Counted from the stretch's first letter, positions 1 through 64,000 are shown. The stretch is 64,000 nt of DNA from Bilabrum cf. latius (GCA_965178125.1 OZ237757.1:744001-808000), one strand, 5' to 3'. The notes: generated by a model from the sequence alone, not told the origin. Numbers and translations are program-made.

Positions 1-3000
1 AGCGTCCAGGTCGGCGGTGCTCGTCGATTCAGCGTGCGCGTTGCTTGAGCTGTCCTCGGGTAACACGCACCCCGAGTCCTATGGTGCTTGCAGTGCATCG
101 CTGTCCTGCAAGCTTGGCGAGAATGCAGTGCATCCTGGGGCAGTGCGGGCAGATGCCCAGGAGGAGCCAAGAGCCACGAGGCCTTGCATGTTCACTTGGC
201 TCTGGCCCCGATGATATTCGTCACCACCTAGTTCCCTAGGAGTTATGCTGCCACTGTCAACCACGCCGGCCCCTGCATGGCGACCATCCGAAGGTGCAAC
301 GGACTCGACTTTCCTGCGCAGCCGCCTGCGGATCCCCCCCGCCGCCCTCTCCGCCTCTATCGCAGCATCGCTGGCGAACTCCAGCCCGAGCACCACCGAG
401 TTCAGAGGCACCCTGCACTCGTGAGAGACGAACCGCAGCCTGGCTCGCAATGCGGCTGCATGTCTGTCCGCCTGCGCCACGGCAGTCTCCAGCTCATCGG
501 ATTGCACGGCGAACAAATAGAGCGCGCCCAGCACCGCAACCCGGATTGCAAGCCAAGCAAATCTCCAAGCCGACTCGCCTACCGTGTACGCCATCGCAGC
601 ATCTTCCCAGTCCTCCCGCAGGAGTTGCTGCAACGATCGATCAGCAAGATCTTCCGTGGGACAGGGGAAGAAATCCCGGATGCCTGCGATCAACGTGTAT
701 GCGCACTGGCAGACAGCCTCGGGGCGAGCAATCAGCGACTCCTGCAGGATATTCACCGCGATAAAGTGAAGGATTGCGGCAGTGGCCATCCCTTTCAGTA
801 CCACGGCCAAGAGCGTTGTGCGAGATCGCACCTGCCGCACCAGTGCCGCGCCGAGACTGCTCTGTGCCCCCGTCAGTCCCTGTCCACCGGGGTCCACGAG
901 AGACTCCACGCGACCGTCTCGAGAGCCGAGGAGCAGCGCTGCAGACCTCAACACGTGGTTCTCCGTCGCAGGATAGGTGGGATCATCGCCTTCAGCGCCT
1001 GCCCGGCCGCCTAAAGGACCGCAGCACAAGTCACAGCGCCCGCTAGTGCGATCCGGAGCGCTGCTTTTAAGGTCTGGCTGGCCACTCTGATGCCCACACC
1101 CGGGCGAAATCGCCACACTTGCAGCAACGAAGAACCCGTACGTGTCCGAGGCGGCCAAAATCCACTCGTCGCTGTCCTCCCAGATAGAGCACCACCCCTC
1201 CTTCCGTCCCATGCCGCCCTACTGCTACATAGCGCGACCAACGGTTGAACTGCTGCCAGCGCCTGCTCCTCGTCTGGTCCCTCCTGCGGGCGCCTGCTAG
1301 ATCTTTCGCAGTACCCTCAGGAGGCGCTGCTGGCCGCTGCGCAGCCTGGGAGTTCCTCGTCCTTTGCTAGACGACACATCGTTAGATGCAGCTGGTAGGT
1401 GGCCGCCATCGCATACTTGGTAGCAGCAGCAGGTGCTTATGCATGCGCCCATGCATCGGCACGGCACTCGCCAGCAGCACAGCGCTTTGCAGCACACCGA
1501 GGCGTGGCACTGACCAAAGCACACTGCGCATGAGACGGCAGCGGGAGCATCCGCCCAGTCCCAGGCGATCGTGCTCGTTAGCTCTCGGCTGGCCTCTCTA
1601 GAGCTTGGTGTTGCAGGCCCGCGTCTGGCGGCACCAGTTTCAGGGTCCAGCTGCACGTGAGAGCGCGGTGCAGCAACTGCAGCAGCGGCATGAATCGTGC
1701 TGGTATTGGCGGTCGAAACTGCGGGGGCCGTATCCGACGCAAGGTGAGGCACCGGAGCCACACCGCTTTGGTTGGCACCGAGAGGCGTGACCTTGCCCTT
1801 GCCCTTTGATGTCGATCTCCTCCTTTGCTGCTGGACGGCGTGCCCCCTCAATCTTGCTGCAATCACGTGCTACCCAAAGTGGACATCAGCTCGGTGAAGG
1901 GCCCGCCTCAAGCCCACCGCCGGTGTCAGCACAAAGAGGAGGAATCCCCACAGCGTGAATGCGACATGAACCACGGCAAGCAGCACGATCAGGCCCGGAA
2001 GATAAGCGTACACTCCCTCCAGTTTCTCTTCGTACAGCCTGGGCTGGCTGTTGCTTGTCCCGTCCAGCACATCGCTGACGGAAAGTGGGAAGGCCAGACC
2101 AGCAGCAGATGCGTTCCCGCCCGATGCAGCCACCTTGCCCCTGGCGTAGTCGAGGGCAGTCAGGGCCACAGAGGACTCGGCCGAGCTCATCCTCACGATG
2201 CACGTGTGCAGTACGTCAGATCGAGTGACTTCATTTTCAAGCAAGACGTCAGCATTGTGCTGGATTGCGCCACTGGCGAGCGCTGCCTGTAGAGCGGCGG
2301 AGGCATTGTCTCGGTCGTTGTCAGCATCTGCTCGCAGGGCGTGCTGCTGCATTGCTAGGAAATACAGTGGCTGGCCATCGGTGCCGGTGATGAGAGGCTG
2401 GGCCCACAGCGGCAGCTGCACGGACGCACTGCGATTCGGGGCAGGCGTGGCATCCGCGGGTCCCGCGGCCGACTGTGCCCACCCCTCCGTAGGTGCCCAC
2501 CAGAATCCACCGGTGGACCGCTGATCCGATCCCGACGATCCCGACCGGATCCGGTCGAGCTCCCTTGTGGCAGACACGCCTTTCTCGTACGACGCCGCGG
2601 AGGCCGCCAAGTTCGTGAAGCCAATGGTGGCAGATACGAATGCGTTTGCCGCGAATCCAACCACCACGCACGTGATGATGGTCACCAGCCTGCTCCTCTT
2701 GGCCTGGATCTCTGCCCTGGGCCTCGTGGCGTTGGCCGAGCCGATAATCATAGTGGAAATCACCACCGTGCTCACAAACACGGCCCCGGATACTGCCACT
2801 AGTGGTGACACGGTGCTCTGCTGCGGGATGGAGTACCGAACGTCCCCCACCGTCCATGGCTCCCCGCGCACCATGCGGGACAGGTAGTGCACGATGCCGC
2901 GAATCAGGCCGCGAGCGCTCGAAAATCGGATGACCAGCGGACCTTTCCCGAAGGTACCACCTTTGGGATCGCTGGTCTCTGGGACGTACTGGAAAAAGCT

Positions 3001-3723
3001 CTCCAACGTTGCCATGGCTGCAAGCGTCGTTACAAGCATCAACAGGACCGATCTGCGGGTGCTGCACTCGGCCAGGCAAGCACACTGCCAACAGGAGCCC
3101 GCGACAACGCGACGGCCGCCAACGTAATCTTTACGAATAGTGCTTGGCGGCACATGGTTGATAGGCCGAGTGCTTGCGGAAATCGCGGCGGTGTTGCCAA
3201 CTGCACCAAGTTCGCTTCCAGCAGGCAGAGATGAATCTTCAGCTCTATCTCTACGACAACCGCTGCATGCGTACATTTGCAGCAAAGTTTTCATTAAGCG
3301 GTTTCCCCCACCGTTTTTCCAAGCTTCAAGTACCCACAGAGCTGTTAATAATACCATGCAAGCGATAGCCACTAACACATTGCAGGCGCTAAAAATACCG
3401 ATTGCGTGCTGAGCCATCCGGGTAGAAGCCTGGAAATCCAGAAGCGAAGACAGTATTGTGCCAGTTTGCGATAGTCTAGACGAATAGTTTCTGGACGTAA
3501 GCGAAGGCCAAGGGGCAGCGAGCTCCGCTGAAGGATTCGCACCGCTCCTGTACAGCACTCCACTGCCCAATTCCCCCGTAAGTATATCGAGCACAATCGA
3601 GGTACCAGCAATAAGGATCATCGAAGCAAGTACAGGAACCAGCAGGCTTGTCCATGCGTGCGTTGCGAGCGCTTCGATCGCCGCGGCGCTTCTAGGCTAA
3701 ACGGTTCCACTGCTCGACACCAT
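1..3723 (-). CDS. Multi-pass membrane sensor histidine kinase (3' end runs off the window)
   Basis: ORFs 1870..3621, 1297..1866 and 79..1212 share one frame and are joined only by TAG (3697, 1870, 1297, 1225, 1219, 79). ATG at 3723 (caaATG). Several hydrophobic segments are followed by a coiled coil and an HisKA H-box, RLRFVSHECRVPLNSVVLGL. The frame stays open to position 1. Confidence 0.75.
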
Positions 3724-4298
3724 TTGAGACCGCACAGGGCGCAACCGAGGTTATTAGCAAGTCATGATTGATCCTACCAAAGGCAGATAAATCTAGATTC
3801 GTGTTGCAGAAGCTTACCGTCGCAGTCGCCGTTCGTGCTGCGAACAACGCCGTGACCGGCTGCTTTTGGTCGCAACTTGATTGAAGTCGCGGCGCTCATC
3901 AGCCCGGCTGCCAGTGGTCGGAGCCTGAAGTAATTAGGCTGACCGCAAAAGATCGGCTGAGGAACAAACGCATGCTACCAAGTGGAGCCAAAAGAAGGAA
4001 TTCCAAGAAACAAGAAATTGTATCCAAGCGTGCAAGCTGCGGCATCAGACCCCCGTGCTCAAACAGGCACAGGGACGCCGGCCAGTCTCGACATCCAAGG
4101 CCGAGCCGCTGCAGTCGCAGGGTGTCGCGCGGGACCAGCCCCCGAGGTAGCATCCAATACCGCCCCCAGGCGCTAGCCCCCAACGCCCCGCCGCCGAACC
4201 ATGCAAATAGAATGGTCGGGATTCAGGCGTGCGCGCGCGAACACATCCTGTTCCAGCTCTAGACTATCCACCACACCTCGTGGCAACTCACTGGGCTA

Positions 4299-4340: not shown

Positions 4341-4342
4341 AT

Positions 4343-6840
4343 TCAGTCGGCGAGCTCATCATCCCCTTCCAGCACCACCCCGCCCCCGGCTCCTTGTGCA
4401 CCAACAACGAAAGAGCCGCCCGAGGCAGGAAATGCCGAGGGCATTCCATCTGTTCGGGCACGCTTGGCCTCCCTGCCCCAGCCTCCCTCCCACCCCCCTT
4501 CCTGAGTGCATGGTGGCAGCGATGCAGCGGTGCTCCGAGTCGCTCCGTGGCTCGCTGGTTGGTTGGAGGCCTAGCTCGGGCGCAGGGCAGCGGATCTAGT
4601 CTGGCTCCCGCCGGGGGCAGACACGTGGGAGAATTCTGGACTCAAATCTGAGCCAGAGTCATAGTCTGGCTCACTTTCAGACGCCGAGTTGGAGTCGGCC
4701 GCAGCACCGTTCCCTGCGGCAGCACCGGCGGCATCCGTGAAGTGCGGCGGCGAGGAGCCATGGCACGTCCGGCTGCCAGTGCTGAGGGGCCCCGACATGA
4801 TACGAGCTACATGCCGCTCCGGGGTTTGCGAGCTGGTGCGCCTCCGCTTCTTCAAGTGCTCTAGGCTCATGGAGTGGATCCTCGTAGCGGGGCTGTCGCC
4901 AATGGCATCGCCCTTACCGCGAAAAGAAGGCCCGGCTCCACCGCCAGCAATGGGCATGTCGCTCCTGCCAGTGGCATCGCCCTCACTGCGAGAAGGAGGC
5001 CCAGCTCCACCGCCGGCAATGGGCATGTCGCTCCTGCCAGTGGCATCGCCCTCACTGCGAGAAGGAGGCCCGGCTCCACCGCCGGCAATGGGCATGTCGC
5101 TCCTGCCAGTGGCATCGCCCTCACTGCGAGAAGGAGGCCCGGCTCCACCGCCAGCAATGGGCATGTCGCTCCTGCCAGTGGCATCGCCCTCACTGCGAGA
5201 AGGAGGCCCGGCTCCACCGCCAGCAATGGGCATGTCGCTCCTGCCAGTGGCATCGCCCTCACTGCGAGAAGGAGGCCCGGCTCCACCGCCAGCAATGTTG
5301 CCTGACCCGCTTGCTCGGCCGGTAGTGGGCGACCATGGCTGTGAGGCCTCCCAGCCCTGGCCCTGGATAGTTTGGCTCGCAACGGGTGCTGCATCTGGCA
5401 GTCGCTGCTCGGATGGCGCCATGCCAGGCTTACCGGATTTCGCAGCTACATTTGTCTACTTGCTCCCCAAGGGTTGCCGATGCCGCGCTGCGGCTTTCGT
5501 TGATTCAATAAACTCTTGGTTCGGCACTGGGCCTGTCTGGGATACACGCTGATGACGCCATGCCGCCGCTTCTTGCTTTTGCCCAGTTTTCTCGCTCGGG
5601 CATTCAATAAGCTTCTATGCTGTTTCAACTGGTGACAACGAGCCCGTGCCTGGGGAATAACTAGTACCACTGCGAAACAAGGAAAATGCAAGCTAATTTG
5701 TGCAGCATTACTGTTGACTGTGGTTGCAGCCTGCTGAGCGGTGCGAGAAGACTGCGATCCTTTGCCGTGACAAATAAAAGCGACCAAACCACGCAACGGG
5801 GGCGAGTCAGATGTCATTGCAGTGAATCGCGCTATAATGATACACACAGTTCACTGCAAAGGAGGCGATGTTAGTCTGCCGAAAGGCTTGCAGGGGGAAA
5901 TGGGCAGGATCGATGGATGGCCGACACGATGTGGCTCAAGCTGACCGCCAGCGAGGAATCATTCAATTCTTACTTGCATTCCATGGCGCCTGAATGTATG
6001 TTTTGCCAATCAAAGTCGCGCTTGACCCGTGGTGGATGCCTGCAAAGCAGTTGCTCGCCCCGGCTGCCGACGCGCACCGGTGCGCAGAAAACCCGACGCC
6101 GTACGCGGTATCCTGTCTTGAAGTACACGCAACTTGAATGCCCCGGGGAAAAGGAGAAAAAGACAGGTTCGATCCACAAACACGTGTCACGGGATGTCAA
6201 GGGGTCGTATTGGCTTGAGAGAATGCCTGCTCAGTCTTCAAAGCTGCTAGGATTGTTTATTGGCAGCACCCCACAGACTCCGCGACTAGATCCACCACAT
6301 AGTCCGTGGTGGATTCAAATGCCACGTCTCGGTCGCAAATGATATCGGTAGGCGGTCTTGCGTCGTATCGCCACACCTGTTGTTGCTACCCTCCGCCTCA
6401 CCTTCTCCTCCTTCTCCTCCGCTAGCCACTGGCCGAACGACTGGCCCCCACCTTGAAACCGGCTTTCCCCACCCACGCACTGGTGTGCCATCGGCGCCGC
6501 AGGAGCCTCGCTATAGTCCAAGCCGACCGTAGTGTCTTCGCTCAACCCTGGCAGAGCGCCGTGCAAAGGTCTCAGCACTGCCTCCAACGACTGGCACAGC
6601 AGGATGGCAGACTGCGGGCGCAACTCATTGGAGGCATTCGCGGCATCAACGGCGCTTTCGCTGAAGCCCCTCACGGAGAATACCAGGTAGGCTGCAGTTG
6701 GCCGCCGCCGGCGTGTCCACACGCAACCGAATTTTTTCGGTGTGTGACGACGAAACAATGTCCGCAAATTTACTTTGCGTTGTAGCGGACCAATAAGGCG
6801 ACTTCGGGTTTAATTGGTACATTTCAACGAAAATCTCCAT
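4343..6840 (-). CDS. Hypothetical multi-exon protein with 23-aa tandem repeat (exon structure partly uncertain)
   Basis: The last exon (about 5669 to TGA 4343) is open except for TAG at 5615, 5456 and 4571. Phase-compatible introns at 6773-6692 (GTAAAT..GCAG) and about 5973-5670 (GTAAGA..GCAG). The middle intron and the start (6840 or 6822) are not resolved. Confidence 0.45.
4903..5297. repeat. 69-bp coding tandem repeat, about 5.5 copies
   Basis: Near-identical units encoding MPIAGGGAGPPSRSEGDATGRSD on the minus strand; no spacers. Confidence 0.95.
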
Positions 6841-6873
6841 TATTACGTCGATGGTACGGAGCGACGCTGCCGA

Positions 6874-9800
6874 ATGATTGCCTAGAATGGTGGACTTTAC
6901 CGCAAGCGCAAGCGGGCGCGCAACCGCCTCAACAGACACAGTCTCCCATTGCGGCATCAGGTTGCAGCCACGGTGGGATGTCTACTTTTGATTCTTGCGT
7001 ACATTTTCGGCCGCCCTGCTAATCTGCCAGGCAGTCCGGAACCTGCAGATGAGCCAGCGAGCGAGTGTGCACTTGGGCCTGCCTCCCGTAGGAATGCCGT
7101 TCTGTCGCAATTTAGAGACTTAAAGTAGGCTTCTAGGATTTTGGTTGTAGATCAAATCTCAGTCTCAGACTGGCAGGGGGCATGGAGTGCTGACTTGCAT
7201 CTGGCGCCGAGAGGCTGGGAAGAAGCCATGTCATTTGGCATGTCACGCACCGGAGCCACCCGACAGGTAGCAAGAACTGAAATCATGCAGGATGCAGCCC
7301 CCGGCCCATACTCCCACTCAGATCGATTCCGAGACTCCTTGGAGCGAGCAGGCCTGGAGGCAGCCGAGCACCTGCCCATGCTCGGAACAGCGCTGGCGCT
7401 CGCACGGGAGAGCGGGCAGCCCCTCGCGATGGCTAGCGTGACATTCCTTCTCACCGGGCCGGGTGTGCAGGAGCTGGCTGCGGCCGAGCTGGCGGTAGCG
7501 CAGGCACTCACTGCGGGCAGCGAGGCCTGCGCTGACCATGCCATCCGCGCCTCAGGTGTATCCGCCGACCGCTTGTCCCTCCTGTTCGTATGGAGGGGGC
7601 TGGTGCGCCTCCTAGCCCAGCGGGGCATCCGGGCTCTTCTCCTGCCTCGCTCCCCGGGCAACGTAATCGTCACACCGGCCAGCGAGATGGCCTCCTCGGC
7701 CAGCGATTTTCTGGACTGGATCGACCCCACTGCCGCTACAGGGGGGGAGGAGCCCGGGGCGGCCCCGGTCCGACTGGGGCACGCATTGGGGAACACACTG
7801 AGGCACTCGTTGGGCGGAACAGGTGCCGCGGGCACGCTGGGTGACCACGGGCCACAGAGTGGACAGCCAGGCTCTCAGTCGAAACAGGCCGATTGGGCGG
7901 CACGGCTGCCACCAGCCGCAGAAGGCCTCGGACCGTTCGAAGAGGTGCACGTGAGGGCAAGCCGGTCGCCCGCCGTCCACGCCATGCGCCGGCGCCGGAT
8001 GGGTGTGACGAGTGCACTCGCGGGCACCCGTTTCGTGGTCCACGCGGTGGGCGGCGGGGACGACCGCATGGTTCGCCAGGGAAGGTTCGTTGGGTCCGTG
8101 GACGAGTTGGTCGCAAGTGCCGCGGAGTACGTCAGCGTCGAGCTGGCCGATGCCGTGGTCGCGTGGGATGCAGGCGCGCTCCGTCGGCTCCGGAGGGCGG
8201 GCGCAGCGCCGCGCAATCCCGTTCTGGTCCCACCGCCGCTGCCGAACTTCACCGCTGCCAAGAGCGATTGGACCATCAGAGACGCCCCTTCCAGCACGTC
8301 TGGAACCCCCCGTGGTCCCAGCACCACTCGTCCTCCTCGCACGCGTCCAGCTGCCTCGAGGCATAGCAGCCTATCCGCGGCTGCCGCCAACTGCCTCTCG
8401 CACCGGCTGCATATATCCGTTGAGTCCCCGTCCTGGACCCCACTGCTTGCGAGAGAGACGGGCTTGTCGCTGGTGAAAGCAGCGGAAAGCATGCTGCAAG
8501 AGCTGCACCAGCACCAGGGGCAGGGGTAGGGGTAGGCACTTAATGGCGGCGGCGGTATGATAGAATCAGAGCAGGGCGCGCGGGTGCTGTTCCTATGCAA
8601 GCTGCACTGCACTGTGGCGGTATCTACGATGCAGGCGGCCGGCCTCGACGTGAAGAAGCTGAGCCGCGGCACTGCTCACGAGAGCAAGGGTCTTGACGAG
8701 CTGGAGAGTGCCTGGTTCAAACGGGTGGACAAAGTGGAAGATACAAGCGAGAGTGGTCAAAGAGGCAATGACGAGGACGCGGCACTCCGGGGTACCGGCG
8801 AGGACACCTTGCGGCCTCTGGCACAGACAGGCGAATCTGCAGAGGCCGCCCAGCACAGGGGCTTTGCAAACGGCCTGGGCCCCGCGCTCGGTCACACCCC
8901 GGGCCAGGCGCTTTCTCATTCGGAGGTGCTGGAGGACCCGTTGGTTGGCATGACATCGCTGGAACTCGGGGGATAGTGGGAGGCCAAGTTGGACGGGTGG
9001 CGTTCGGCAGCTGCTTCCAACATCGGTAGCAGGCGAAGATACCACGTGTCTGTTGAGATCGTGCAGGTGAGCTCGTACAGCGTAGCGTGGAGGCGCGCTG
9101 GGCTGCTCGGGCAGGTGCCGGAGCTCTGCGCCCTCGCGTTGTTCCCTCCCTCCTTCGCCGATGCCGCCTGGGACGCGCGCAGGTTCGCAAGCTTGGGGAT
9201 CCCGCCCGTGCTTCCTGGTGCGTTGTCGACTGAGGTGGAAGACGAGGCCATGCTGGTGGCACTGCAGCCAAATGCTGTGCGCGTGGACGGGCCGGGGGAG
9301 TCAGCCGGGCTCATTGAAGCGAGTTTACCCGTCGCACGTGCTGGGTCAGACACTGGCTGGGGGGAGGCGTGGGGCGCGCGGGATGGCAGCACGTCGGAGG
9401 GCGACGCGTGGGTGCTTGATCGGTATGAGATGCCGTCACCCACCACGCTGGGCAGGTGGCTAGCCAGGTCATTCGCTGGAGAGTCGCCAAAGGGTCGCAG
9501 CGGAGTCTCTGTATCTGGCCTCATCGGGCGGCTGGGAGTCGGCAGCCGGCCGCTTGCAATCACAGATCTAGATGAGGCAAGCACGCCTACAAGCGGTGCT
9601 TCCTCTTCTGCTGCTGCAACGGGTCGCGGCGCGGTGCATCGGCTGGTCGGTACCGAGGCAGTGGCAGCTGGCCTGCGCCAGGTCCGTGCCGCATCGGAAG
9701 ATTCCGCGCGGGCCGCCGCTGAGGCGATCGCGAACGTTCGCGATCGGATCAAGAACGACCCACCGCTGGTGACCGTCTGCATCGCGACAAAGAACCGAGG

Positions 9801-49417: not shown

Positions 49418-49566
49418 ACTCCATCATGCTTATTTGATTGATTGGTTGTAGTTTATGCAAGAAATAACATTCACTGGCATACAATTCCATCCCTCTTAGG
49501 CCAGCCCCGCCGTACACCCCCTCACCCCTGCCCCATTCACAGGAGCAGGAGCAGCTTGGGCCAAAA

Positions 49567-53209: not shown

Positions 53210-55897
53210 TCAGTCACCTTTGGCACCCTTGGCCTGCGAGAGCCCCTGGGCGTTCGACGGCCGGGGCCCCGGAAACGGCCGCGCACCGAACGTTCCATTA
53301 GAGACCATCGGCGGACGACCCCCAAGAACTGCGCCCGCTCTCCTTGGGCTTAGAGAGGACCCGACCCCCCCTGTTCCAGCCGCAAACCCTCTAGGCCGCC
53401 CCCCCCCAAAGCCCAAGCCCGGGCCAGGGCCAGCTCGAGGCACCGGCCTCCCAAAGCTGCCCGCGCTCGAGGCGGACCGGGCCGTTGCGGAACCGGCGCC
53501 GCGCGAGAATCCACCCGTGGACCCGAAGGACCCGAAGCCCGGCCTGGCCTGCAAGGGGTGCAGCCCGCCCGCACCACCCGACGCCGACCCCACTGAGCCC
53601 CGGGGGGTCGTCCCCGAAACCCCCGGGGGTCCCATCCGGGGCGCCGGCAGCTGTATCGGACGGGCGAGCGGTGAAGACACGGCCCCTTGCGGAACCGAAC
53701 CCATTTGCGTGGCGCCGAACCCTGAGGACACGGCGAGGGGCCGGGCCCCCGGGCTGCGACCGCCGGCCGCGGCCGCGGCGGCGGCGCCGCGCATCATGGA
53801 GGAGGTTCCGCTGCGCGACCGCCGCTCGGCCTCTCCCGCGGACCTCAATCGCGCCCTGGAGGCAGGGGCAGGGGCAGGGGCTGTTCCGCCCTTCCCGAAT
53901 CCGCCTGATGATTGCTGCTGCTGCTGCTGCTGCTGCTGATAATGGAAGTGCTGGCGGGTGCTTTCTTGACCGGTCTGGTGCGAGGTACCCCCGAATGTGG
54001 TCCCATAGGCACCCCCCACCAGGGCCGGGGAGGCAGGCATCGACACCGGACTCAGCGGAGGCATATGCGGAACCTATCCTGGCAATTGCGCGGCGCCGCC
54101 GCCGGCGTGTCCGTTGTTCTTCTTGTTCAGTACCAGAGCAGGCACCACCGGCCTGCCGGTCGCGGAATGAATCGGCTCCGAATCATTCGCTCCAGGCCTT
54201 GCACCTGCATCGGCACCACCAGATTCCGAATCCGCGGCCGTACCCTCTTCCCGCCCGTACTCCGAGGAGGCCGCATCCGGGCCCGCTTCAGCGGAACCAA
54301 ATTGCGCGGCGCCCCCGTCTCCTGCGGACCACGACTGGGCGCGCTCCAAGGGGAAGCGACGGCCAGCGAACCTTCGCTGCAAACCTGCCCCATCGCCCGC
54401 ACCCCCTTCTTCCCCGTCCCCACCGTCAACACCGTGCCCCGCACCACCGTGCGATGCACCTTCGCCGCCGTCGCCACCCGATGACCCGGTCACCACCCAG
54501 CCCCCTCCCATCCCCACCCTCCGATGCCCCCCCCTCCCCCCGCCCAGCCGAGCCCGAAGACCGCCACCCCCGGCCCCCAGAGACCTGGCGCTGATGCTCC
54601 CAGGCCCGCTGGCCCCCTGGCTGCTCCTCGCCCGGCGGAGCCGGGCCGCTCCGGCGAGGCGCCGTGCGCCGTGCGGAACCGGTGGCCCGCCACCGATACC
54701 CCCGTACTGCTGCTGCTGCTGCTGGTAATCGTCCGCCCACCCCGTAGCCGATGACTCGGAGCCGAAAGTGGGCGTGCCCAGGAAGGACGACCCGCCCCCG
54801 GGACCACCCCCCCACCCAGAGTCCTCTACCCCCCCCGCTGCAGACGTTCCGCTGGCTTCGGAGGCACCCGTGATCGAGCGCTCCCGGTGTGACGAGTAAC
54901 CGGTTGCAACCGATGGGTCGACCTGCTATCGGTAGGGCTCCGGCTGCGAGTCAACTGCACCTTCGTGCGATGCACCTTCGTCGCTTGCAGCCCCAGCAAC
55001 GACACCCGCGTCGCCTTTCTGCTCCTCCTGCTCAGACGCCTGCATGATGGACTTGGACACGATGGCCAGCGCGTCAGCTGCCAGGGGAGGCCACCATGAG
55101 AGGGGCAGGGCCCACAGCCCCAGCGCGTAGTAGGACACCCCGCGGACCAGTGTGACGAGTACCCACGCCGCTGGCATGCACTGTGGGGGTATGACCGCGC
55201 CCCCAGGGGTATTTCCCCTGGGGCCACCCCCCCTCCCGACCCCCCTGACCCCTCTACCCCCAGGGGCCGAAAGCACGGCCCCCTCCCTCAGGCCGGCCTG
55301 GGCGAGTGCAACGTCGTAGGCCTCGAAGGAAGCCACGCGGCCCCAGCAGCTCTCGCAGCTCGCGCGCATGCACCAGCCCAGGGAAACGAGCAGGCCGGGC
55401 AGCACCACGAGAAAATACACCCCTTGGTCCGCCAGCTGCACCCACGAGAGCTCCTTACCGACCGCGGAGCGAGCGCCTTCCAGCGTCATGGACCCGTACT
55501 CGTCCACGACGTCAAGGCCGTCAGAGATGGCCTTGTCCGTCCGCCGAGCGGCCTATGTGGCCTTGGTCGCCCTGACTTGGAACTGCTTAATCTCGGCCTC
55601 GAGTGCATCGCTGGCGTCCCGCACCAGACCTGTTAGTCTCTGCCGATTCTCGCGCACCTCACGGACGGCGCGGCTCCGAGCCGCCATGTCCGACATTTCT
55701 TGCTTTGCGCGCGCAGCAGCTGCTACATGCAGTCTCTTGAGGTCTTCCTCGGACAACGTTTCAGCCTCTGTATCTTGCCTGGCATCTTGATCGACGCTGT
55801 CGAGCGAAACGTGTTTCTTCCGTGTTTGCCCCATTGCTCCAGAGGCGACAAGCAGGATACAAGCAGTGAGAAGTGCAATTAGACGCGATTTGAACAT
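53210..55897 (-). CDS. Hypothetical membrane protein with signal peptide and low-complexity C-terminus
   Basis: Four ORFs in one frame joined by TAG (55553, 54926, 54074); TGA at 53210. N-terminus MFKSRLIALLTACILLVASGAMG, then a coiled coil and hydrophobic segments. Confidence 0.65.
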
Positions 55898-56069
55898 GTT
55901 GCGCACAGCGATTGAAGTTGACTGGTGCGCGAAGAATGTGCTGCGTGTTGGCACAATGGTGGTGTGGTTTTCTTGCCGATGTTGGGCTCGTCATCCCGGC
56001 CGGCGGTGGATTTGGTGACCGTTTGTTGGAATCATCTGGAAGAGGATTGCGAGTTGTACGTCCGCGAAA

Positions 56070-59000
56070 ATGGATCAACCTGTGGCATGCATTACAGGAC
56101 GGGTTCCAGAAAAACGCCGTCGACGGATGCCTTCAAGAAGTCCGGCATTGAACGAGGGAGACGGACAGTTGCACTTCACTGGCGAGGACGAAGAAGCCGT
56201 GAAGCCGTACAAACATACAGTTAAAGGGACGAATAGTGTACCAGCATTACCCAATTCAAGAAGCACGGGAACTTTCGACGCGCTGCTGTCGTTGATGCTG
56301 GCATCAAGGGCTGCGAGGCATTTTGGGCTGCAGAGGTCCGTGCCGGTGCCGTGGGACGGCCTAGCGCATGCAAGCACTGCATGCCACCAATAGGTAGGCG
56401 AAGCCATATCTAAACCCATTCCTGGTGGAGGGAAACGCCCGACGGTAGTGCAGCTGGATTTCGGTGAAACCCCACCACCGCGTGCTGCTGCTCCAAGGAG
56501 CGAGGGTGCTGGTGGCGGCGAGCACACGCAGCGGCTGAGCCCAAGGCAGCGACAGGACCTTCCATCGCAGGGCCAGGACGACGATTTCATGAGCTTTCAA
56601 GGATCTGACGATTCGGGCGACTCGTGCTCGGACTCTGGAGCGGAGCAGCAGCCGAGCAATGCCGCGGTGCTAGTGGAGAGTGCTCGCACTAGCCCTCGCC
56701 CTTCCTTCGAGGAGCCGACGTGGCAGCAGCAGCCGAGCAATGCCGCGGTGCTAGTGGAGAGTGCTCGCACTAGCCCTCGCCCTTCCTTCGAGGAGCCGAC
56801 GTGGCAGCAGCAGCCGAGCAATGCCGCGGTGCTAGTGGAGAGTGCTCGCACTAGCCCTCGCCCTTCCTTCGAGGAGCCGACGTGGCAGCAGCAGCCGAGC
56901 AATGCCGCGGTGCTAGTGGAGAGTGCTCGCACTAGCCCTCGCCCTTCCTTCGAGGAGCCGACGTGGCAGCAGCAGCCGAGCAATGCCGCGGTGCTAGTGG
57001 AAAGTGCTCGCACTAGCCCTCGCCCTTCCTTCGAGGAGCCGACGTGGCAGCAGCAGCGAAGCCCGGCCCAATCCGTCTTTGTGGACAGCCCCGCTCCTCC
57101 CTTGTAGGGAACAGACGATTCACCCCAGGGAACAATAGAGGCCCCGGTGTCTGGCAAGAGCAAGGTAGCAGGGGCAGGGGGGCGATCTGCGAGGTCGAAT
57201 GGAAGCTGCGTAAGCTGGGCTGCATCGGTAAGGATGGGCGCGTCGCCCAGCCCCCGCCATTCAGTCTCAAGCACAGTCGGCTCAGGCAGCAGGAAGAGCA
57301 AACACAAGAAAAAGAACTCGGAGAGAAAGAGAAGCAATGGAAGAGAGTCCTCGAGAAGGCCGTCTCCTGCGTGCGACTGCCTCAGCCCGGTGTCTGGGGA
57401 ACATGCGGTGGTTCCGCAGACCGCGCGGCGCCGCGCAGCCATCCTCTCGGACTCTGAATCCTCCTCCTCCTCATCATCTGAGTCTCCCTCACCCTTTCAG
57501 TCGTTGCCTGCATCAGCGTCCCAGCAGCGGCGGCAGAAGCTGCAACGCGGTAGATCTACCGCCGCGTCTGCTGGCTCCGGTTCCGATTCCGAGTCGGGAT
57601 CACGACACGGTGCAGCAGCACCAGCAGCAGCGCTACCCGCCGTAGGTCCTATGGCAGGGCTGCTGCCGAGTGGGCCCCTGGACCCCGTGGGTGCATCGCA
57701 CGACAGTGCCCAGAAAGGCAGCGACCGGACGTCCTCGGCAGCCGAGGCTGCTCCTGCCCCCCCGAATCACGAGGTAGAATCATCGGATGACGAGTGCAGC
57801 GACAGCGACGACGTTGACGTGGAGGAAGCAAAGAGGAAGATGCTGGGAAGAAGAGGCAGAATTGGGAATGGGATTGGACATGGGATTGGGAAGAAGCGCC
57901 GCGGCCGGGCCTCGAGGGAAGCAGCTGAGCCTGAGCCTGAGCCTGCCGCCAACGACGGGTCTCGGTCTGGGTCTGGCAGCGATGCATCCACCTCTGACTC
58001 CGATTCCTAGCCCGATTCGGGCTCGTAGGGAACAGACTCGGAGTCGGAATAGGACCGGGATAGAGGCAGGCGACGAGGAAGAGAAAGAGGCAGGGTCAGG
58101 GGCAGGGACAGCTGGCTGGCATCGTCCGACTCGGAATCATACTCTGGCTCGGACCCGAGCTAGGGTTCGGATTCCGAGTCGGACGATGCCAGCCAGCTGG
58201 ACGTGAGTGACGACGAGGATCAGGAAGTGGAAGATGAAGATCGGGAGGAGGAGGAGGAGGAAGGTGGGAGGGGAAAGGGGTCGAATCGTCGACCCCATCG
58301 CGATGATGCACACGCAGACGAGGATGACTACGACCGGCCGGTGCCCACCAGCCGCTCAGCTCGAGAGGCCTTGTCCCTGGAATGGTACAGGAGGTGCAAC
58401 GCCTCCGTGTTCCAGGGTCTGCTGCCTCCGCCGGTCGCGGGCGGCGGCGGGGGTTCCGCAGGGAGTCGCGGCGCCGCGCAATCCGACGTCTTGGATGTGA
58501 GTTGGAACGCCCGCCTGCGCAAGACGGCCGGCCTCACGTACACCTGGGGACGCGCGGCGCCGCCCCTTGGTTCCGCAAAGAGTGGTTGCCCTCCGGCCCG
58601 CCGCCCGGGGGCCCGCGCCCGCATCGAGTTGTCCACCAAAGTGCTCACTACAATCGGGAGGCTCCGCCAGACGCTCCTGCACGAGATGTGCCACGCGGCC
58701 GCCTGGCTCATAGACGGCTCCAGGAAACCGCCGCACGGGGCCGTGTTCCGCAAGTGGGGCGCCGCGGCGGGGCGTGCGGAACCGGGGTACCCCGTGACCA
58801 CCACTCACACGTACGACATCTTCTACAAGTTCCGCTGGGAATGCGCGGCGTGCGGTCGGGAGATCGGCCGGCACTCGCGCAGCATCGACCCCGCGAGACA
58901 CCGGTGTGGGGCCTGCGGGGGCGACTTGCTGTACCTCGGGACGTTCCGCAAGGATCGCGCGGCGCCTGGTGCGCGGGGCGGGCGACCTTCGAAAGCTGCA

Positions 59001-59357
59001 GTTGCAGCCGCGGCAGGCCGGGGGCAAGATCGCGGTGCGGTGCTTGCGACCCCCGTGGCTGGCGGGGCGGGGGCGGGGGCGGGGGCAGGTCGGGCCAGCG
59101 CCCGGAAGGCCACCGGGTTTGCGAGGTTCGTGAAGGTTCGATACGCGGAGGTGCGACGAGACCTGGCGAGCAGGATGGACTGGGACGCCATGCGCGGTGA
59201 AGGCGAAGGCGAAGGTGGGGGAGGGGGAAATGGTGGTGCGGCCATCCCCGCCCCCGCCCCCGCCCCCGCACACAAGGAGGTGATGGCAGAGCTGTCGCGT
59301 CGCTGGAAGAACGGAGGGAAGGAGGAGATGGGAGGGGTTGATGTGCATGGGTTGTGA
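56070..59357 (+). CDS. GCNA: GCNA/ACRC-like SprT metalloprotease
   Basis: Four ORFs in one frame joined by 6 TAG (56391, 57105, 58008, 58026, 58050, 58161); TGA end. Long acidic disordered N-terminus, WNARLRKTAG, TLLHEMCHAA (HExxH), HGAVF, CxxC..CxxC zinc ribbon and HMG-like FARFVKVRY..HKEVMAELSRRW. Confidence 0.85.
56646..57056. repeat. 81-bp coding tandem repeat, 5 copies
   Basis: Encodes QQPSNAAVLVESARTSPRPSFEEPTWQ; copies near-identical. Confidence 0.95.
58109..58199. repeat. Perfect 30-bp inverted repeat with 31-nt spacer
   Basis: CAGCTGGCTGGCATCGTCCGACTCGGAATC (58109-58138) and its exact reverse complement (58170-58199). Confidence 0.95.
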
Positions 59358-59716
59358 GTGAAAGGGGCCTATGTGCTGGGTGCTGCGGCGAGATTCTCGT
59401 GTTCTATCCCCAGGCGACTGGTCTCAGCGGACGGATAGGCGAGTGTGCTGCAAGCGAAGAAGTTACTCGTCAAAGTGCCCCTTCTGTTGCTCCAAAAAAC
59501 TGCTTTCACGGCTAGCGTTGCAAGTTCACTGGGGTGCGTAGTGAGTGCGCACTTCTTGATTGTATGCAGGCTCAATGTTTGTTTCATACGATGGTTGGTG
59601 CCCGAGACGGGCTGCCGGTTGAACTGTTCTGCATTTCGGGTGGTTGCGTGTGATTTGATCGCACCAGTCAGCAGCCTGCTCATCGCACGCAGAAAAAGCC
59701 GCCTTGGGCGGCCAAC

Positions 59717-62700
59717 ATGGCACGTATCCGCGAAATTGAGCACCCTTATGAGGTGTCATGGGATAGTTTAAAACCACTTGTGGACTGCGATCCTACCCTT
59801 GTCTAGGCGCTTGGCATTCCAAAGACAGAATAGGGTAATTGGTTTTATCAATCTGCAACTATCCACTTTCAGCCAACAGGGTCGCAAGAAGGTACAAATT
59901 TGATAGCAGGGGCTGAAATACATGCTATTGATTCCCAAAGCATATTGAAAGGCAGCCCTGGGTCGAAGCAATCACCGGGCGGCAAAGATATGTGTCGGTT
60001 TGCTGGAGTACTGAAGTGTGAGGATAATCTATCCGTGTCTCCTGGTGTTTGCTAGGGCGTGGCGGCTGATCCAAAGAATTATGCTAGTATGCTTCGAGTT
60101 GGTGGAGCATGGGATGCTCCAGTGTCAGGTTTGTCCGCGAGGACCGCAGGAGACCCTGCAGCAATCGGTTTGTCGTTTGGCACGAAGCCGCCGCCGGCAC
60201 CGCTTCACTTCGGGTTCGACGACCCCTTACCCTCAAGATCAGGCGGTCATCTATCTGGTTTAGCTACATCTGGTAATTCTAATGGGACTTCGACATCGTG
60301 GACGGGAGCTACATCGTATGGAGCAGGCAGTAGAACACACATGCAGCCAAGCGTTAACATTAGCTCACTTGTAGTAGCTTGTGCACTGAGAAAGGGCACT
60401 GGAATCACCGGAGGTACGGCATATAAATCACTTCCATGCCGTATGTACTGTTGCGAAGCCAGCCTGGTGCTCGAAGAATCTAGATCAGGCCTGATGTTGG
60501 GCGCGGGAGCTGCTGCTTGGCAGTCCCAGACGAAACCAAAGCGCGAAGCACTGACAGTACAGATACCATTTAAGGTATCATCGCATGCAAGCGCCATGCA
60601 TCTCAAATCGTACAGCCCGGATACATTCAAGGATGAAGTAGTTGGTAAGCTCGCGGCGCAGATGGAGCTCGACGCAGCAAAAGCACGAGCAGCGCCTGCA
60701 GGACCCCCACCGCCACCGCCGGTCACCGGCGCAGTGCAAACATGCAGGCCATGGCTAAATCAAGTGAATTTAGATCAGATCGTGAGCATGGTGCGCAGCG
60801 ACGCGCCCGGACTGCAGGCGGCTCGTTGGACGCTGCCAGAAGGCGAGGCAGGCCCTTCTTCCGGTGACAAGGGCAAATTGCCCCCGCGGGGATGGGGATT
60901 GGAAGGAAACGTGAATTCGGCATGGGCGCGCATGGCGCTTGCAGAGTGGATCGACGCCGTGGGGGGGAGGGGAGGCGCATAGCCGGGCAGCACGGGCACC
61001 GGTCTTGCCCTCAAAGCCGCGGCCCCCCTGGACCGCAAGCTCGGTTCGAGCACTGCCATGAGGCTGCTGCTGCAGCTGTGGAAGCGAAGGGGGCAGGGAA
61101 GCAGCGGCGGCGGCACAATGCCGTCGGCCCGCAACACGACGTCGAACGCAGATGTTGCCGCCCAGGTCGCGCTGGAGTCGATGGCCGTGGCAGCAGCAGC
61201 TGCTGACGCTTCCAGTGGCCAGACCAAGCAATCGAGCAAGACCACGATGGCCACGTCGATGGAACGGAACCTAAATGCGCGGCGCCTTGCCCTTGGGCTG
61301 ATGCGGGCCGGGCTGCGGCAGGCCGCCGCCTCGTCGGGGGAAATCCTCAAACCGGAACATCTTTCGATTCCGGGTGAGATTTCCGTCCGGCGGGGAAAGT
61401 GGGTATCCCGTGGCGTGCCCAAGCAAGGGGCCCAGGGCAAGGAGTAGGAGGGGCCCTTGTCCTGCGAGGCCGTCGTGGACGCGTGCACGCAATCTCCAGC
61501 CTCGCTCGAGCTCGTCACACGGACCATCGGCCAGCTGTCGAGTGCCCTGTACCGCAATGCGGTGCACCCATCGCCCGATTACAACGAGGCGTTGCAGGCC
61601 GAGCTCAGCTCTGAAGCGCTCGAGGCGATGCGCAATACCGGGGTGCTTCGTATGGCAGAGGCGCAGCAACACGGGGGTGGGAGTGAAGGCGGGGGGGCAC
61701 AGCTGAGCGGTGCCATAGGAACCGATGGCGGGCTGAACACGGAGCAGCTGGCAGCCGTGGGCATGTGCCTGCGGAAGCCACCGCTGGCGGTGCTGTTCGG
61801 GCCCCCGGGGACCGGCAAGACCACCACTCTCGCGACCATGCTGGCGCACCTGCTGCGGGATCCGGCGGAGCCTCGGGTGCTCGTGCTATCACGCAGAGAA
61901 GAGGGGTCGGACGCTGCGGTGGCGCGCGTGCTGGGACATCTGGAACACGTGCAGCAGCGAGAGGAAGAGGAGGAGGAGGAGCAGCAGCGCCAGAGGCAGG
62001 CCAGGCAGAAGCAAGCACACGCTTTGAGAGCGGCAGGGAGCGGTGGAGGGATGGGCAGCAGCACAGCAACAGCTGGTATGGACGGCTTTGAGGCGCTCGC
62101 CGAGGCCCTCTAGGCCGACGATGATGAGGAACAGGAAGATGCACACACGCACGGGCAAGGGAACACCAGGCCTGGGCAAGCGCGGGTCACCTCTGCCGCG
62201 AGTGACGTCATGCGTGTGGTGGGTGCGAGTCACGAGCCGCAGGAGACGGAACGGGCTCTGGGCCGCGAGCAGGCGCGAGTGGCGTGGGCGCTTGCGGCCC
62301 CCGCCGAGAGGATGTGCCGGCTGGGGGGGTAGGGCCTAAGCGCGCTGGCGGCCTGCAAGCGGGCGGTGTTTGCGACTGTGGACGAGGCCGCCGCCTGGCT
62401 GGGTCACGCGCGGCAGCTGCTGCAGGGGATAAAGAGCAGCAGCGACAGAGGGCAGGGTGCGGTCAGGGGGCACAAGGGTTCGTGGGGGCGGGCTGTCGAG
62501 ACCAAGCCAAGCACGGGTGCAGGCGCGGGCACAGGTGCAGGCGCGAGTGCAGACCAGTCGCTGTACCATCGCGCGCTTCATTTCGACTATATCATGCTGG
62601 ACGATGCGAGCGGTATCACCCGGGAAGAGGTGCTGCCAGCACTGGCGGCGTGCCATCTCGCTTCACAGCTGAGTCAGGGAACACGTGGTGAGTCAGGTGC

Positions 62701-64000
62701 GGGCACCAGGGTGGGACTCACTCACGGCAGCACGGCTGCAGCGGCAGCCGCCGCAACCAGCGCGACAGGTGCACCTGCAGGCACCCTCCCGGGGATGCCG
62801 ACGCTGATCCTGGCGGGGGACCCTCGTCAGCTGGGGCCCGTAATCCACGACCGGCTGGCGGAGCTGGCGGGGGCGGGTGTCTCGCTGCTTGAGAGGATGC
62901 TGGGGGCAGGGTACAAATTCAGTGCCACAAGCAGCAGCAGCTCAGGTGATGGATCACAAGACGACAAAGAACCTCTGCAGCAGCATTCCATCCAGGCCTT
63001 CCCGAGAGGAGTGTGGATGCAAGGGACAGTAGGCGTGGCTCACCTGACTACGAACCACAGAGCTGCCCCCGTGCTGGCTGCGTTGACCAAGCACCTCGCT
63101 CAGAATGAGGTAGGTGCAGCAGGCGATGCAGAGCGCGAGCAGACACACATGCAGGCACAGAAATAGCCTTCGCGAATCCCGCCCACCGGCAGGGAAGCAG
63201 CTGTTTGCAGTGCACTGCATGCGGTGCTCGTCCAGGGACCAGCCAGCGAAGCGGGTCATGCATAGGATGACGATGATGCACAGAAGCACTCGGCCGTGTA
63301 GCCCGTCACGATGGACGATCTGGACGAGCTGGAGGAGGAGCTCTTCGGAGATGGGCCCAAACGGGCTGCCGGAGGACCGCCGGTATCTGAATCTGAATCA
63401 GCACAAGAAGAATACGATGATATCGGGGCCCCTGTCGATGCCGATGATGCTGCAACCCAGGCAGCCCTGGATCTGCTCGCGCCGGGATCCCCCACCAGGC
63501 CTGCAAACGAAGAAGAGGCTGGTGCTGATGCAAGCGCCGAGGCAGAGACGGAGCCTTAGGTTAAAGACTAGCACGGCGAAACAAAGGCAAAAGAAGGAGA
63601 CGATACCCAGCGTACTAGTCTAGACGTCCGAGCGGCGCGAAAAGCGCGCAAGGAGAGGAGGCGGGCTGTCGCGGCAGCAGCCACCACGTCGGGTTGGGGA
63701 GGCAGGCAGTCCCTCCCGCAAAGCGACTCCGACTCGGAATCTGATTCCGAGTCCAACGGCGGCGGCGAGGACGGTGCCGCGGAAGAGGCGAAGAAGCAAG
63801 GGCCGATCAAGTACGCGCAGCCCGCTGCCGGGTCCTCGTCGTCGACTGCCGCCGGGTACAGCTCCATACCAGGCGCATTGCATGCAAGTGCGGGCGATGG
63901 CGCGTCCAGCAGCGGATGGGCAACGAGGGGGCAGACCCCTGCTTCGGGTAGCGGGTCAGTTCCCACATCTCCAGTGAGCGGTGGCAGCGGTGCGGGTGCG
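59717..64000 (+). CDS. Upf1/DNA2/NAM7-like superfamily 1 helicase (3' end runs off the window)
   Basis: One frame from ATG 59717 (provisional) with 12 TAG and no TAA/TGA. LNTEQLAAV, Walker A GPPGTGKT, FDYIMLDDAS, LILAGDPRQLGPVI, SLLERM, LTTNHR. Confidence 0.8.

What the first reader, a model, noticed from the sequence alone, without database searches (positions are those of the whole stretch)
1..64000. Non-standard nuclear genetic code: UAG is a sense codon, UAA and UGA remain stops
Seen: about 80 in-frame TAGs (hand count) lie inside 14 genes, including conserved ones (Vti1, bL25, GCNA, DENN, SF1 helicase, U-box, GT2, BAF-like). Successive ORF-track fragments share a frame and are separated only by TAG: 16 TAG and no TAA/TGA over about 5,000 codons at 10904-25869, and 18 TAG over about 2,340 codons at 42010-49034. 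Every completed gene model ends in TGA or TAA (TAA at 32304 and 49032), none in TAG. Established: most eukaryotic stop reassignments change UAA and UAG together; UAG-only cases are rare (for example UAG=Gln in the fornicate Iotanema, UAG=Leu in an uncultured rhizarian, some phyllopharyngean ciliates). Inference: this GC-rich protist does not look like those lineages, so it may be an independent and possibly undescribed reassignment.
Basis: partly seen in the sequence, partly recalled or inferred. Interest (0 to 1): 0.97.

Follow-up and report, generated by a model that had tools for sequence, protein, structure and literature searches.

The report
UAG read as glutamine, not stop
This GC-rich eukaryotic nuclear DNA uses the stop codon UAG as an ordinary amino-acid codon, most likely glutamine, while UAA and UGA still end genes; this rare code is known from only a few other lineages.

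Summary
Eight large ORFs (14,381 codons) contain 69 in-frame TAG, 0 TAA and 0 TGA. The two off-frames hold 83-97 TAG, 38-46 TAA and 188-242 TGA. Reading TAG as sense opens ORFs of 5,030 and 2,353 aa. Reading TAA as sense changes nothing. Conserved domains (U-box, SprT, GT2, V-SNARE) lie downstream of TAGs. Transcript-like contigs from three runs in two studies splice two GT..AG introns and keep four TAG codons unchanged.

Meaning of TAG:
- Close relatives (81-94% identity) show Q at 3, Y at 2 and W at 1 of 6 spanned sites.
- Three metagenome contigs from more distant relatives also read TAG as sense.
- Those contigs place TAG at two invariant helicase glutamines (123 of 124 and 76 of 76 aligned homologues).

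Gln is therefore the best reading, at about 0.8.

Every gene end checked is TGA, except one TAA. I found no tRNA or eRF1 gene and no whole genome, and the lineage is unresolved. It is neither ciliate-like nor fornicate-like. The code itself is known (NCBI table 15 type). This is probably a further independent case, shared by an environmental clade.

The parts
10904..25996 (-). 5030-codon ORF (IQ motifs) with 16 in-frame TAG, no TAA or TGA, ending in TGA
41973..49034 (+). DENN-domain gene: 2353 codons, 18 in-frame TAG, TAA stop at 49032-49034. TAG sites 134, 845, 890, 898 and 1836 were compared with close relatives.
59654..64000 (+). SF1 (AAA_11) helicase gene, open at the window end, with 12 in-frame TAG. 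Its motif III Gln is CAG at 62828-62830, where the metagenome relatives have TAG.
56019..59357 (+). GCNA-like gene. The SprT domain and zinc ribbon (aa 822-970) lie downstream of 6 in-frame TAG. TGA stop.
53210..55990 (-). 926-codon gene with 3 in-frame TAG (55553-55555, 54926-54928, 54074-54076), each covered by transcript-like contigs with no differing letters. TGA stop.
26391..29234 (+). U-box gene. The U-box (aa 751-818) lies downstream of TAG at aa 410 and 588. TGA stop.
6814..10761 (+). GT2 glycosyltransferase gene. The domain (from aa 987) lies downstream of 5 TAG, including GGG-CAG-GGG-TAG-GGG-TAG at 8521-8538. TGA stop.
1..3750 (-). 1250-codon ORF, open at the window start, with 6 in-frame TAG. 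I saw a histidine-kinase-like H-box motif by eye; Pfam gave no hit.
49446..50450 (-). Vti1 mRNA with a GT..AG intron at 50061-50184 that is spliced in three runs. One in-frame TAG at 50240-50242 is kept in the contigs. TGA stop at 49567-49569.
50691..51951 (-). bL25 mitoribosomal protein mRNA with a GT..AG intron at 51188-51393 that is spliced in three runs. TGA stop at 50691-50693. TAG at 51755-51757 and 51683-51685 are in-frame only if the upstream ATG (51904) is the start.
51998..52719 (-). CHCH-domain mRNA. An 18-T loose end before 51998 marks a poly(A) tail on the minus strand. TGA stop at 52225-52227, no TAG.
29900..34273 (-). Four BAF-like paralogs. One helix column reads TAG, TAG, Lys, Lys (TAG at 29972-29974 and 31438-31440). 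The tandem copies differ TAG versus AAG at 29903-29905.

Best explanation
The window is nuclear DNA of a GC-rich, intron-poor eukaryote that has mitochondria. Its cytoplasmic translation reads UAG as a sense codon, most likely glutamine. UGA (the main stop) and UAA still terminate. This is the NCBI table 15 type of code.

Shown here:
- UAG sits inside genes and must be read through to reach conserved domains.
- UAG is present in spliced, polyadenylated-looking transcripts.
- UAA and UGA are absent from reading frames and end the genes.
- Related organisms share the trait.

Inferred, not shown:
- The decoder is a tRNA-Gln with anticodon CUA, which pairs with UAG but not UAA. It probably arose from a duplicated tRNA-Gln(CUG).
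- eRF1 has lost or weakened recognition of UAG.
This is the mechanism that Panek et al. propose for Iotanema (passages of PMC5304391).
For: (1) Frame statistics. The eight ORFs hold 14,381 codons with 69 TAG, 0 TAA and 0 TGA in frame. Off frame there are 97/83 TAG, 38/46 TAA and 188/242 TGA. About 257 TGA+TAA would be expected in frame.

(2) Specificity. TAA-as-sense lengthens no major ORF.

(3) Domains downstream of TAG: U-box, SprT with zinc ribbon, GT2 and the V-SNARE C-terminal domain.

(4) Transcripts. Contigs of runs X5, X6 and X7 (studies P2 and P3) skip 50061-50184 and 51188-51393, with CT..AC ends on the plus strand, which is GT..AG on the minus strand. Each joint has 255-letter sides. 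The X1 contig runs straight through both. X5 has an 18-T loose end at 51998. These contigs cover TAG at 50240-50242, 55553-55555, 54926-54928 and 54074-54076 with 0 other letters.

(5) Gln in distant relatives. Metagenome loci L001-L003 are relatives of the window's helicase; over a 38-aa stretch around motif III they are nearly identical to it. They have ORFs of 750, 811, 482 and 758 codons with 12, 6, 7 and 4 in-frame TAG and no TAA or TGA.
- Their TAG in GDPRxLG aligns with Q in 123 of 124 (L003), 118 of 120 (L002) and 117 of 119 (L001) homologue domains.
- Their TAG in ITPYALxR aligns with Q in 76 of 76 (L003) and 90 of 90 (L002, first gene).
- The window has CAG at the first of these sites.

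(6) Close relatives (81-94% identity). Of 6 window TAG sites spanned, 3 are Q: DENN 898 and 1836, and SF1 820. Three fragments end exactly at window TAG sites 384, 890 and 908.

(7) Local contexts fit Gln: CAG-GGG-TAG-GGG-TAG in a GQ repeat, TAG-CAG-TAG, and CAG-CAG-CAC-TAG-CAG.

(8) In a weak profile match to a solved BAF chain (E 0.41), the TAG/Lys column aligns with Q.
Against: For the window's own organism the amino acid is not settled.
- The other 3 of the 6 spanned sites read Y, Y and W in close relatives.
- Two BAF-like paralogs have K where two copies have TAG, and a recent tandem copy has AAG for TAG.
- Q, Y, W and K are all one-base neighbours of TAG. A 3:2:1 split does not differ clearly from unconstrained mutation.
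- No window TAG falls on an invariant column of a known domain (winSF1 rows).
- At variable columns, the relatives' TAGs do not align mainly with Q (L, P, V or A are commonest).
- The two invariant-Gln sites come from other organisms: 41% identity over 148 aa and 30% over 239 aa to the window protein. They are at most two independent events.

No tRNA gene, no Rfam hit, no eRF1 gene and no genome were available. The mechanism is therefore inference.

The kind of library is not on record for X5-X7. The tool guesses 'probably DNA' for X5. Contigs also drop rare variants, so partial editing cannot be excluded.

A 64-kb window cannot show that UAG never terminates.
Confidence: 0.8

Rival explanations
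1. UAG is a sense codon but codes for another residue (Tyr, Lys or Trp). Alternatively it is read ambiguously by near-cognate tRNAs, with no dedicated tRNA, because eRF1 no longer recognises it.
For: Close relatives show Y at DENN 134 and 845 and W at 890. The BAF-like paralog column reads K, K, TAG, TAG, and the tandem copies differ TAG versus AAG. From my own recall, not tested here: near-cognate readthrough of UAG in yeast inserts Gln, Tyr and Lys.
Against: TAG sits at two invariant Gln columns in related contigs, with Q in 76 of 76 and 123 of 124 aligned homologues. Ambiguous decoding at catalytic helicase motifs would be costly. Q is the commonest counterpart in close relatives (3 of 6). 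Several contexts continue Gln runs. A neighbour-residue likelihood test could not tell residues apart.
Confidence: 0.12
2. UAG has a dual, context-dependent meaning. It is sense inside genes but still a terminator at some gene ends, as in the ambiguous codes of some ciliates.
For: A 64-kb window cannot exclude it. The last TAG of the giant ORF lies only 30 codons before its TGA, so that TAG could be the real stop.
Against: All three transcript-supported small genes end in TGA. The other gene models checked end in TGA, or TAA in one case. No model needs a TAG stop. TAA and TGA are fully excluded from frames, unlike in known ambiguous codes, where all stops recur in frame (abstract of 10.1101/2022.04.12.488043, seen in the listing).
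Confidence: 0.06
3. The TAGs are not translated. They lie in small introns, are edited in the RNA, or mark pseudogenes or assembly errors.
For: None was found. Only four TAG sites were checked in transcript-like contigs.
Against: The same contigs that remove the two true introns run colinear through the TAGs, with 0 gaps and 0 other letters. Sixteen TAGs in a 15-kb frame that is free of TAA and TGA cannot be frame-preserving introns or decay. Related contigs from separate metagenomes show the same pattern.
Confidence: 0.02

Closest known systems
Iotanema spirale (Fornicata): UAG = Gln, UAA and UGA stops (Panek et al. 2017, PMC5304391; I read the abstract and passages)
   Same: Only UAG is reassigned, to Gln. 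UAA stays a stop. The predicted decoder is tRNA-Gln(CUA), with an altered eRF1.
   Different: In Iotanema UAA is the primary stop; here TGA ends nearly all genes. Iotanema is an anaerobic metamonad. This window encodes a mitoribosomal protein (bL25) and a CHCH protein and is 58-72% GC.
Phyllopharyngean ciliates and Protocruzia tuzeti with UAG = Gln (McGowan et al. 2024, PMC11687900; passages read)
   Same: UAG alone became Gln, independently several times. UAG then occurs in most genes.
   Different: Those genomes are 27.4-53.6% GC and use UAA most and UGA least as stop. Here GC is 58-72% and TGA dominates. The introns are 124-206 nt with GTGAGT..CAG ends, and the contig is 64 kb with many genes.
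Rhizarian exLh (UAG = Leu) and Scotinosphaera (UAG = Ser), as listed in PMC11687900
   Same: UAG is decoupled from UAA in a non-ciliate nuclear genome. exLh was also noticed inside another organism's transcriptome (abstract of PMC5304391).
   Different: The residue differs. Leu or Ser was seen at 0 of 6 spanned window sites, and the relatives place TAG on invariant Gln.
UAR = Gln codes (NCBI table 6: many ciliates, hexamitin diplomonads, ulvophytes, Amoeboaphelidium; list read in PMC11687900)
   Same: A stop codon became Gln, probably through anticodon mutation of a tRNA-Gln.
   Different: UAA is not reassigned here: 0 in-frame TAA where about 19 would be expected.
Soil giant virus reading TAG as Gln with TAA as stop
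   Same: The same split of UAG (Gln) from UAA (stop).
   Different: That is a virus and another genome. No link to this organism was tested. A scan of viral contigs with the relatives' helicase found nothing.

Membership tests
Nuclear code with UAG = Gln and UAA/UGA stops (table 15 type) | In-frame UAG inside protein-coding genes, upstream of conserved domains | tested here: met
   69 TAG in 14,381 codons. The U-box, SprT, GT2 and V-SNARE domains lie downstream of TAGs.
Nuclear code with UAG = Gln and UAA/UGA stops (table 15 type) | UAA and UGA are absent from reading frames and are used as terminators | tested here: met
   0 TAA and 0 TGA in frame, where about 257 would be expected. TGA ends 10 gene models and TAA ends 1.
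Nuclear code with UAG = Gln and UAA/UGA stops (table 15 type) | UAG is present in mature mRNA, neither spliced out nor edited | tested here: met
   Four TAG sites in two genes are covered, with 0 other letters, by contigs of runs that splice two introns. The library kind is not on record, and only 4 of about 73 sites were checked.
Nuclear code with UAG = Gln and UAA/UGA stops (table 15 type) | UAG aligns with conserved Gln (related organisms) | tested here: met
   In L001-L003, TAG aligns with Q at motif III (123 of 124, 118 of 120, 117 of 119) and at TPYxxQ (76 of 76, 90 of 90).
Nuclear code with UAG = Gln and UAA/UGA stops (table 15 type) | UAG aligns with Gln (the window's own genes) | tested here: inconclusive
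   The 6 sites spanned by close relatives read Q 3, Y 2 and W 1. No window TAG lies on an invariant column.
Nuclear code with UAG = Gln and UAA/UGA stops (table 15 type) | A tRNA-Gln gene with anticodon CUA | not testable with these tools
   No tRNA in the window or in L001-L003. No genome is held.
Nuclear code with UAG = Gln and UAA/UGA stops (table 15 type) | eRF1 N-domain changes that weaken UAG recognition | not testable with these tools
   eRF1 is not in the window and no genome is held.
UAR = Gln code (table 6) | In-frame UAA as well as UAG | tested here: not met
   0 in-frame TAA, where about 19 would be expected from CAA:CAG = 124:450. TAA-as-sense lengthens no major ORF.
UAG = Leu code (rhizarian exLh type) | UAG aligns with Leu | tested here: not met
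   Leu at 0 of 6 spanned sites. Invariant Gln in the relatives.
Ambiguous codes in which all stops are also sense (Condylostoma or Blastocrithidia type) | UGA and/or UAA also occur in frame | tested here: not met
   0 TGA and 0 TAA in 14,381 codons.

The most novel reading that the evidence does not exclude
This may not be a single odd species. A whole environmental clade of GC-rich eukaryotes may share an old UAG-to-Gln reassignment with TGA as the main stop. The clade would include the window organism, its 81-94% relatives in public runs, and the 30-41% relatives on three metagenome contigs. It would have arisen in a genome where UAG was not a rare codon, which goes against simple codon capture. 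Such a clade would also be a candidate for the unknown host of the giant virus with the same UAG/UAA split that this scan noted earlier.
Probability: 0.2. Interest if true: 0.8.

Novelty: new member of a known kind. Interest (0 to 1): 0.6.

Why it matters
Nuclear codes that give UAG and UAA different meanings were unknown before 2017 and remain few (PMC5304391, PMC11687900).

A further case would be a useful contrast to the AT-rich ciliate cases, because here the genome is GC-rich, TGA terminates most genes, and TAG makes up about 11% of putative Gln codons. It could help test whether such changes come from codon capture, from ambiguous intermediates or from eRF1 drift.

There is also a practical point. 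Standard gene callers cut these genes into pieces: the relatives in the protein databases appear only as fragments of 74-262 aa. Any annotation, BUSCO score or proteome of this organism and its relatives will be wrong until table 15 is used.

Tried and rejected
- Whole genome: none is held, so there was no genome-wide codon inference and no search for tRNA or eRF1.
- tRNA and RNA families: none in the window or in L001-L003.
- First homologue search, with the full helicase at near lengths: no hit at E <= 1e-5, swamped by low-complexity words.
- Neighbour-residue likelihood for the identity of TAG: every residue scored negative, and my calibration was circular. I rejected it as uninformative.
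- Lineage placement with the protein atlas: Vti1 gave tied clusters from several phyla, and DUF4476 gave one weak hit (0.76). No placement resulted.
- Scans that found no relative: metagenome contigs with the DUF4476 protein, viral contigs with P0008, genome contigs with P0001.
- Earlier notes of this scan: nothing for this genome, its look-alikes or P0001.
- Sequencing runs: no RNA holder is listed on record. Stretches without cover in X5-X7 were not used as evidence.
- Distant N-terminal homologue P0011: window TAG sites 51, 60 and 134 fall on D, a gap, or an unaligned stretch. This was uninformative.
- Fragment ends: P0005 and P0006 end just before a window CAG, and P0001 just before AAG. 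This could mean TAG in the relative. However, P0158 runs on past P0005's end and itself stops before an Asn codon, so contig ends occur. I did not count these.
- Solved structures with one BAF-like copy: no BAF match. The four-paralog profile gave only E 0.41-0.63 for BAF chains.
- Supplements of the papers were closed. The species tables of PMC11687900 and PMC5304391 may list further UAG-only taxa that I could not see.
Full report
**What the window is.** The window is 58-72% GC. Read from stop to stop under the standard code, its longest ORF is 842 aa. With TAG as sense the longest ORFs become 5030, 2353, 1449, 1315, 1250, 1112, 947 and 926 aa. With TAA as sense the longest stays at 842 aa. 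With TGA as sense, the commonest stop triplet in this GC-rich DNA, the longest is 1436 aa. The effect is therefore specific to TAG.

**Frame statistics.** The eight large ORFs hold 14,381 codons with 69 TAG, 0 TAA and 0 TGA in frame. The two off-frames of the same DNA hold 97 and 83 TAG, 38 and 46 TAA, and 188 and 242 TGA.
- At the off-frame rate, 89.9 TGA+TAA would be expected in the 5030-codon frame. None is seen (P about 9e-40).
- TAG is used at about three quarters of its off-frame frequency, so it is not avoided as a stop would be.
- If TAA shared the meaning of TAG, about 19 in-frame TAA would be expected from CAA:CAG = 124:450. None is seen (P about 5.5e-9).

**These are real eukaryotic genes.** Pfam finds the following:
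- DENN, U-box, SprT plus its zinc ribbon (GCNA-like), GT2, IQ motifs and AAA_11 (SF1 helicase);
- V-SNARE N- and C-terminal domains (Vti1), both bL25 domains and DUF4476;
- CHCH, a caspase-like domain and, in two copies, BAF, all below Pfam's cut-offs.

In several genes the conserved domain lies downstream of TAGs:
- the U-box at aa 751-818, after TAG 410 and 588;
- SprT at aa 822-970, after six TAGs;
- GT2 from aa 987, after five TAGs.
The protein therefore exists only if TAG is read through.

**Transcript evidence.** I laid four public runs on 48880-56640.
- X1 has one contig that is colinear with the window from 49361 to 56640.
- X5, X6 and X7 come from two studies. Each has contigs that skip 50061-50184 (124 nt, Vti1) and 51188-51393 (206 nt, bL25). 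The joints have CT..AC ends on the plus strand, which is GT..AG on the coding minus strand, and 255-letter sides. The introns read GTGAGT...CAG.
- X5 also has an 18-T loose end before 51998, the poly(A) end of the minus-strand CHCH mRNA.
- The library kind is not on record. The tool guesses 'RNA?' for X6 and X7 and 'probably DNA' for X5. Spliced joints and a poly-T end are what mRNA-derived libraries give.
- The same contigs cover four TAGs with 0 other letters and 0 gaps: 50240-50242 in Vti1 exon 1, and 55553-55555, 54926-54928 and 54074-54076 in the 926-codon gene.
- The only differing letter reported in the stretch is A>G at 49286, in one X5 contig.

Joined as those contigs join them, Vti1 is a 227-aa CDS with one TAG and a TGA stop. 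CHCH is 153 aa with a TGA stop. bL25 also ends in TGA. The TAGs are therefore neither spliced out nor edited in the dominant RNA.

**Which amino acid: close relatives.** The protein collections hold fragments of close relatives (81-94% identity, unnamed, from Logan assemblies). They are cut into 74-262-aa pieces, as a standard-code gene caller would cut them. Six window TAG sites are spanned by such fragments:

| Site | Counterpart | Fragments |
|---|---|---|
| DENN 134 | Y | P0005, P0158 |
| DENN 845 | Y | P0004, P0157 |
| DENN 890 | W | P0157 (P0004 ends there) |
| DENN 898 | Q | P0157 |
| DENN 1836 | Q | P0001, P0156 |
| SF1 820 | Q | P0006 |

Three fragments end exactly at window TAG sites 384, 890 and 908, so the relatives share the trait. 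The tally of Q 3, Y 2 and W 1 does not decide the question. All three are one-base neighbours of TAG, and these are weakly constrained positions.

Within the window, four BAF-like paralogs read TAG, TAG, K, K at one helix column. Two nearly identical tandem copies differ TAG versus AAG. A profile of the paralogs matches solved BAF chains only weakly (E 0.41), and there that column is Q.

**Which amino acid: distant relatives.** The decisive evidence comes from more distant relatives. A homologue of the window's helicase (P0008) led to three metagenome contigs, L001-L003, of 57-59% GC.
- They have ORFs of 750, 811, 482 and 758 codons with 12, 6, 7 and 4 in-frame TAG and no TAA or TGA. One gene ends in TGA.
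- I aligned each ORF with phmmer to 148 of the 159 proteins fetched, leaving out 11 closer relatives of the window's proteins (the 81-94% fragments, P0002, P0011 and P0159).
- The TAG in GDPRxLG (helicase motif III) meets Q in 123 of 124, 118 of 120 and 117 of 119 aligned domains.
- The TAG in ITPYALxR meets Q in 76 of 76 and 90 of 90.
- At variable columns, the other TAGs meet mixed residues, with L, P, V or A commonest.
- The window protein aligns to L002 at 41% identity over 148 aa and 30% over 239 aa. Around motif III a 38-aa stretch is almost identical, and there the window has CAG (62828-62830) where the relatives have TAG.

L001 and L002 are identical over this part and L003 is 85% identical. 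These are therefore at most two independent sites, and they lie in other organisms. Local contexts in the window also fit Gln: CAG-GGG-TAG-GGG-TAG inside a GQ repeat, TAG-CAG-TAG, and CAG-CAG-CAC-TAG-CAG. Taking all this together, I put Gln at about 0.8.

**Mechanism (inferred).** To read UAG while leaving UAA as a stop, the only simple decoder is a tRNA with anticodon CUA. The likely route is mutation of a duplicated tRNA-Gln(CUG), together with an eRF1 that no longer binds UAG well. Panek et al. argue this for Iotanema (passages of PMC5304391). I could test neither part. There is no tRNA in the window or the loci, no Rfam hit, no eRF1 gene and no genome.

**Comparison with known cases.** McGowan et al. 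list the nuclear cases where only UAG changed: a rhizarian (Leu), Iotanema (Gln), Scotinosphaera (Ser), Protocruzia tuzeti (Gln), and phyllopharyngean ciliates (Leu, and Gln twice) (passages of PMC11687900).
- Phyllopharyngeans are 27.4-53.6% GC, with UAA the most used and UGA the least used stop.
- In exLh and Iotanema, UAA is the dominant stop.
- Here GC is 58-72% and TGA ends 10 of the 11 gene models checked. The introns are 124-206 nt, and the window encodes a mitoribosomal protein.

The code itself is known, but the carrier looks like none of the described ones. I could not name the lineage. The two atlas look-ups gave no placement and no marker gene is in the window. Six of my seven literature searches looked for such a report and found none for a GC-rich lineage (one search asked about one candidate genus, Amoeboaphelidium). 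Closed-access papers and supplements were not seen.

I record the parallel but did not test any link.

**Verdict.** The amino acid is probably Gln. This is a new member of a known kind of code, probably shared by an environmental clade. Interest is moderate to high for people who study code evolution, and it has a direct practical consequence for annotation.

Noticed in passing
window 29300-32300: A tandem repeat of a 1466-bp unit carries the 3' end of the U-box gene plus a BAF-like gene. The first two copies differ at only 9 positions over about 1270 bp and then diverge. Two further BAF-like paralogs lie at 32731-32973 and 34031-34273, making four in 5 kb.
   Followed up: partly
window 45277-46437; 56644-57057; 4898-5297; 48544-48871: Long in-frame tandem repeats lie inside coding sequence: units of 336 nt and sub-periods in the DENN gene, 81 nt x 5.1 at 99% identity in the GCNA-like gene, 69 nt x 5.8, and 126 nt x 2.6.
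   Followed up: no
window 12001-28000: GC rises to 67-72% over the giant ORF, against 58-61% over 28-52 kb. TAG density is lower there: 16 in 5030 codons, against 18 in 2353 in the DENN gene.
   Followed up: no
DENN aa 890 (window 44640-44642): Two close relatives differ at this site. One fragment stops there, as at a TAG, and the other reads Trp (P0004 versus P0157). This is a TAG/TGG difference between near-identical sources.
   Followed up: partly
L002 1-5019: This metagenome contig carries two helicase genes of the same family head to tail. The first ends in TGA at 1447-1449. The N-terminal part of the second switches frame near 2587-2782, which suggests an intron or an assembly error.
   Followed up: no
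window 48880-56640: The spliced contigs that match the window exactly come from runs filed under two coded organism labels (B, C) that differ from the label of the best DNA holder (A). The organism may live with, or be mixed into cultures of, other organisms. The labels could also simply differ.
   Followed up: no
window 1-3750 (minus): A long ORF with predicted membrane stretches carries a histidine-kinase-like H-box motif that I read by eye. Pfam gave no hit. The gene runs off the window start.
   Followed up: no
window 49286: One X5 contig (depth 3.5) reads G for A just after the DENN stop codon. This was the only differing letter reported in the laid stretch.
   Followed up: no
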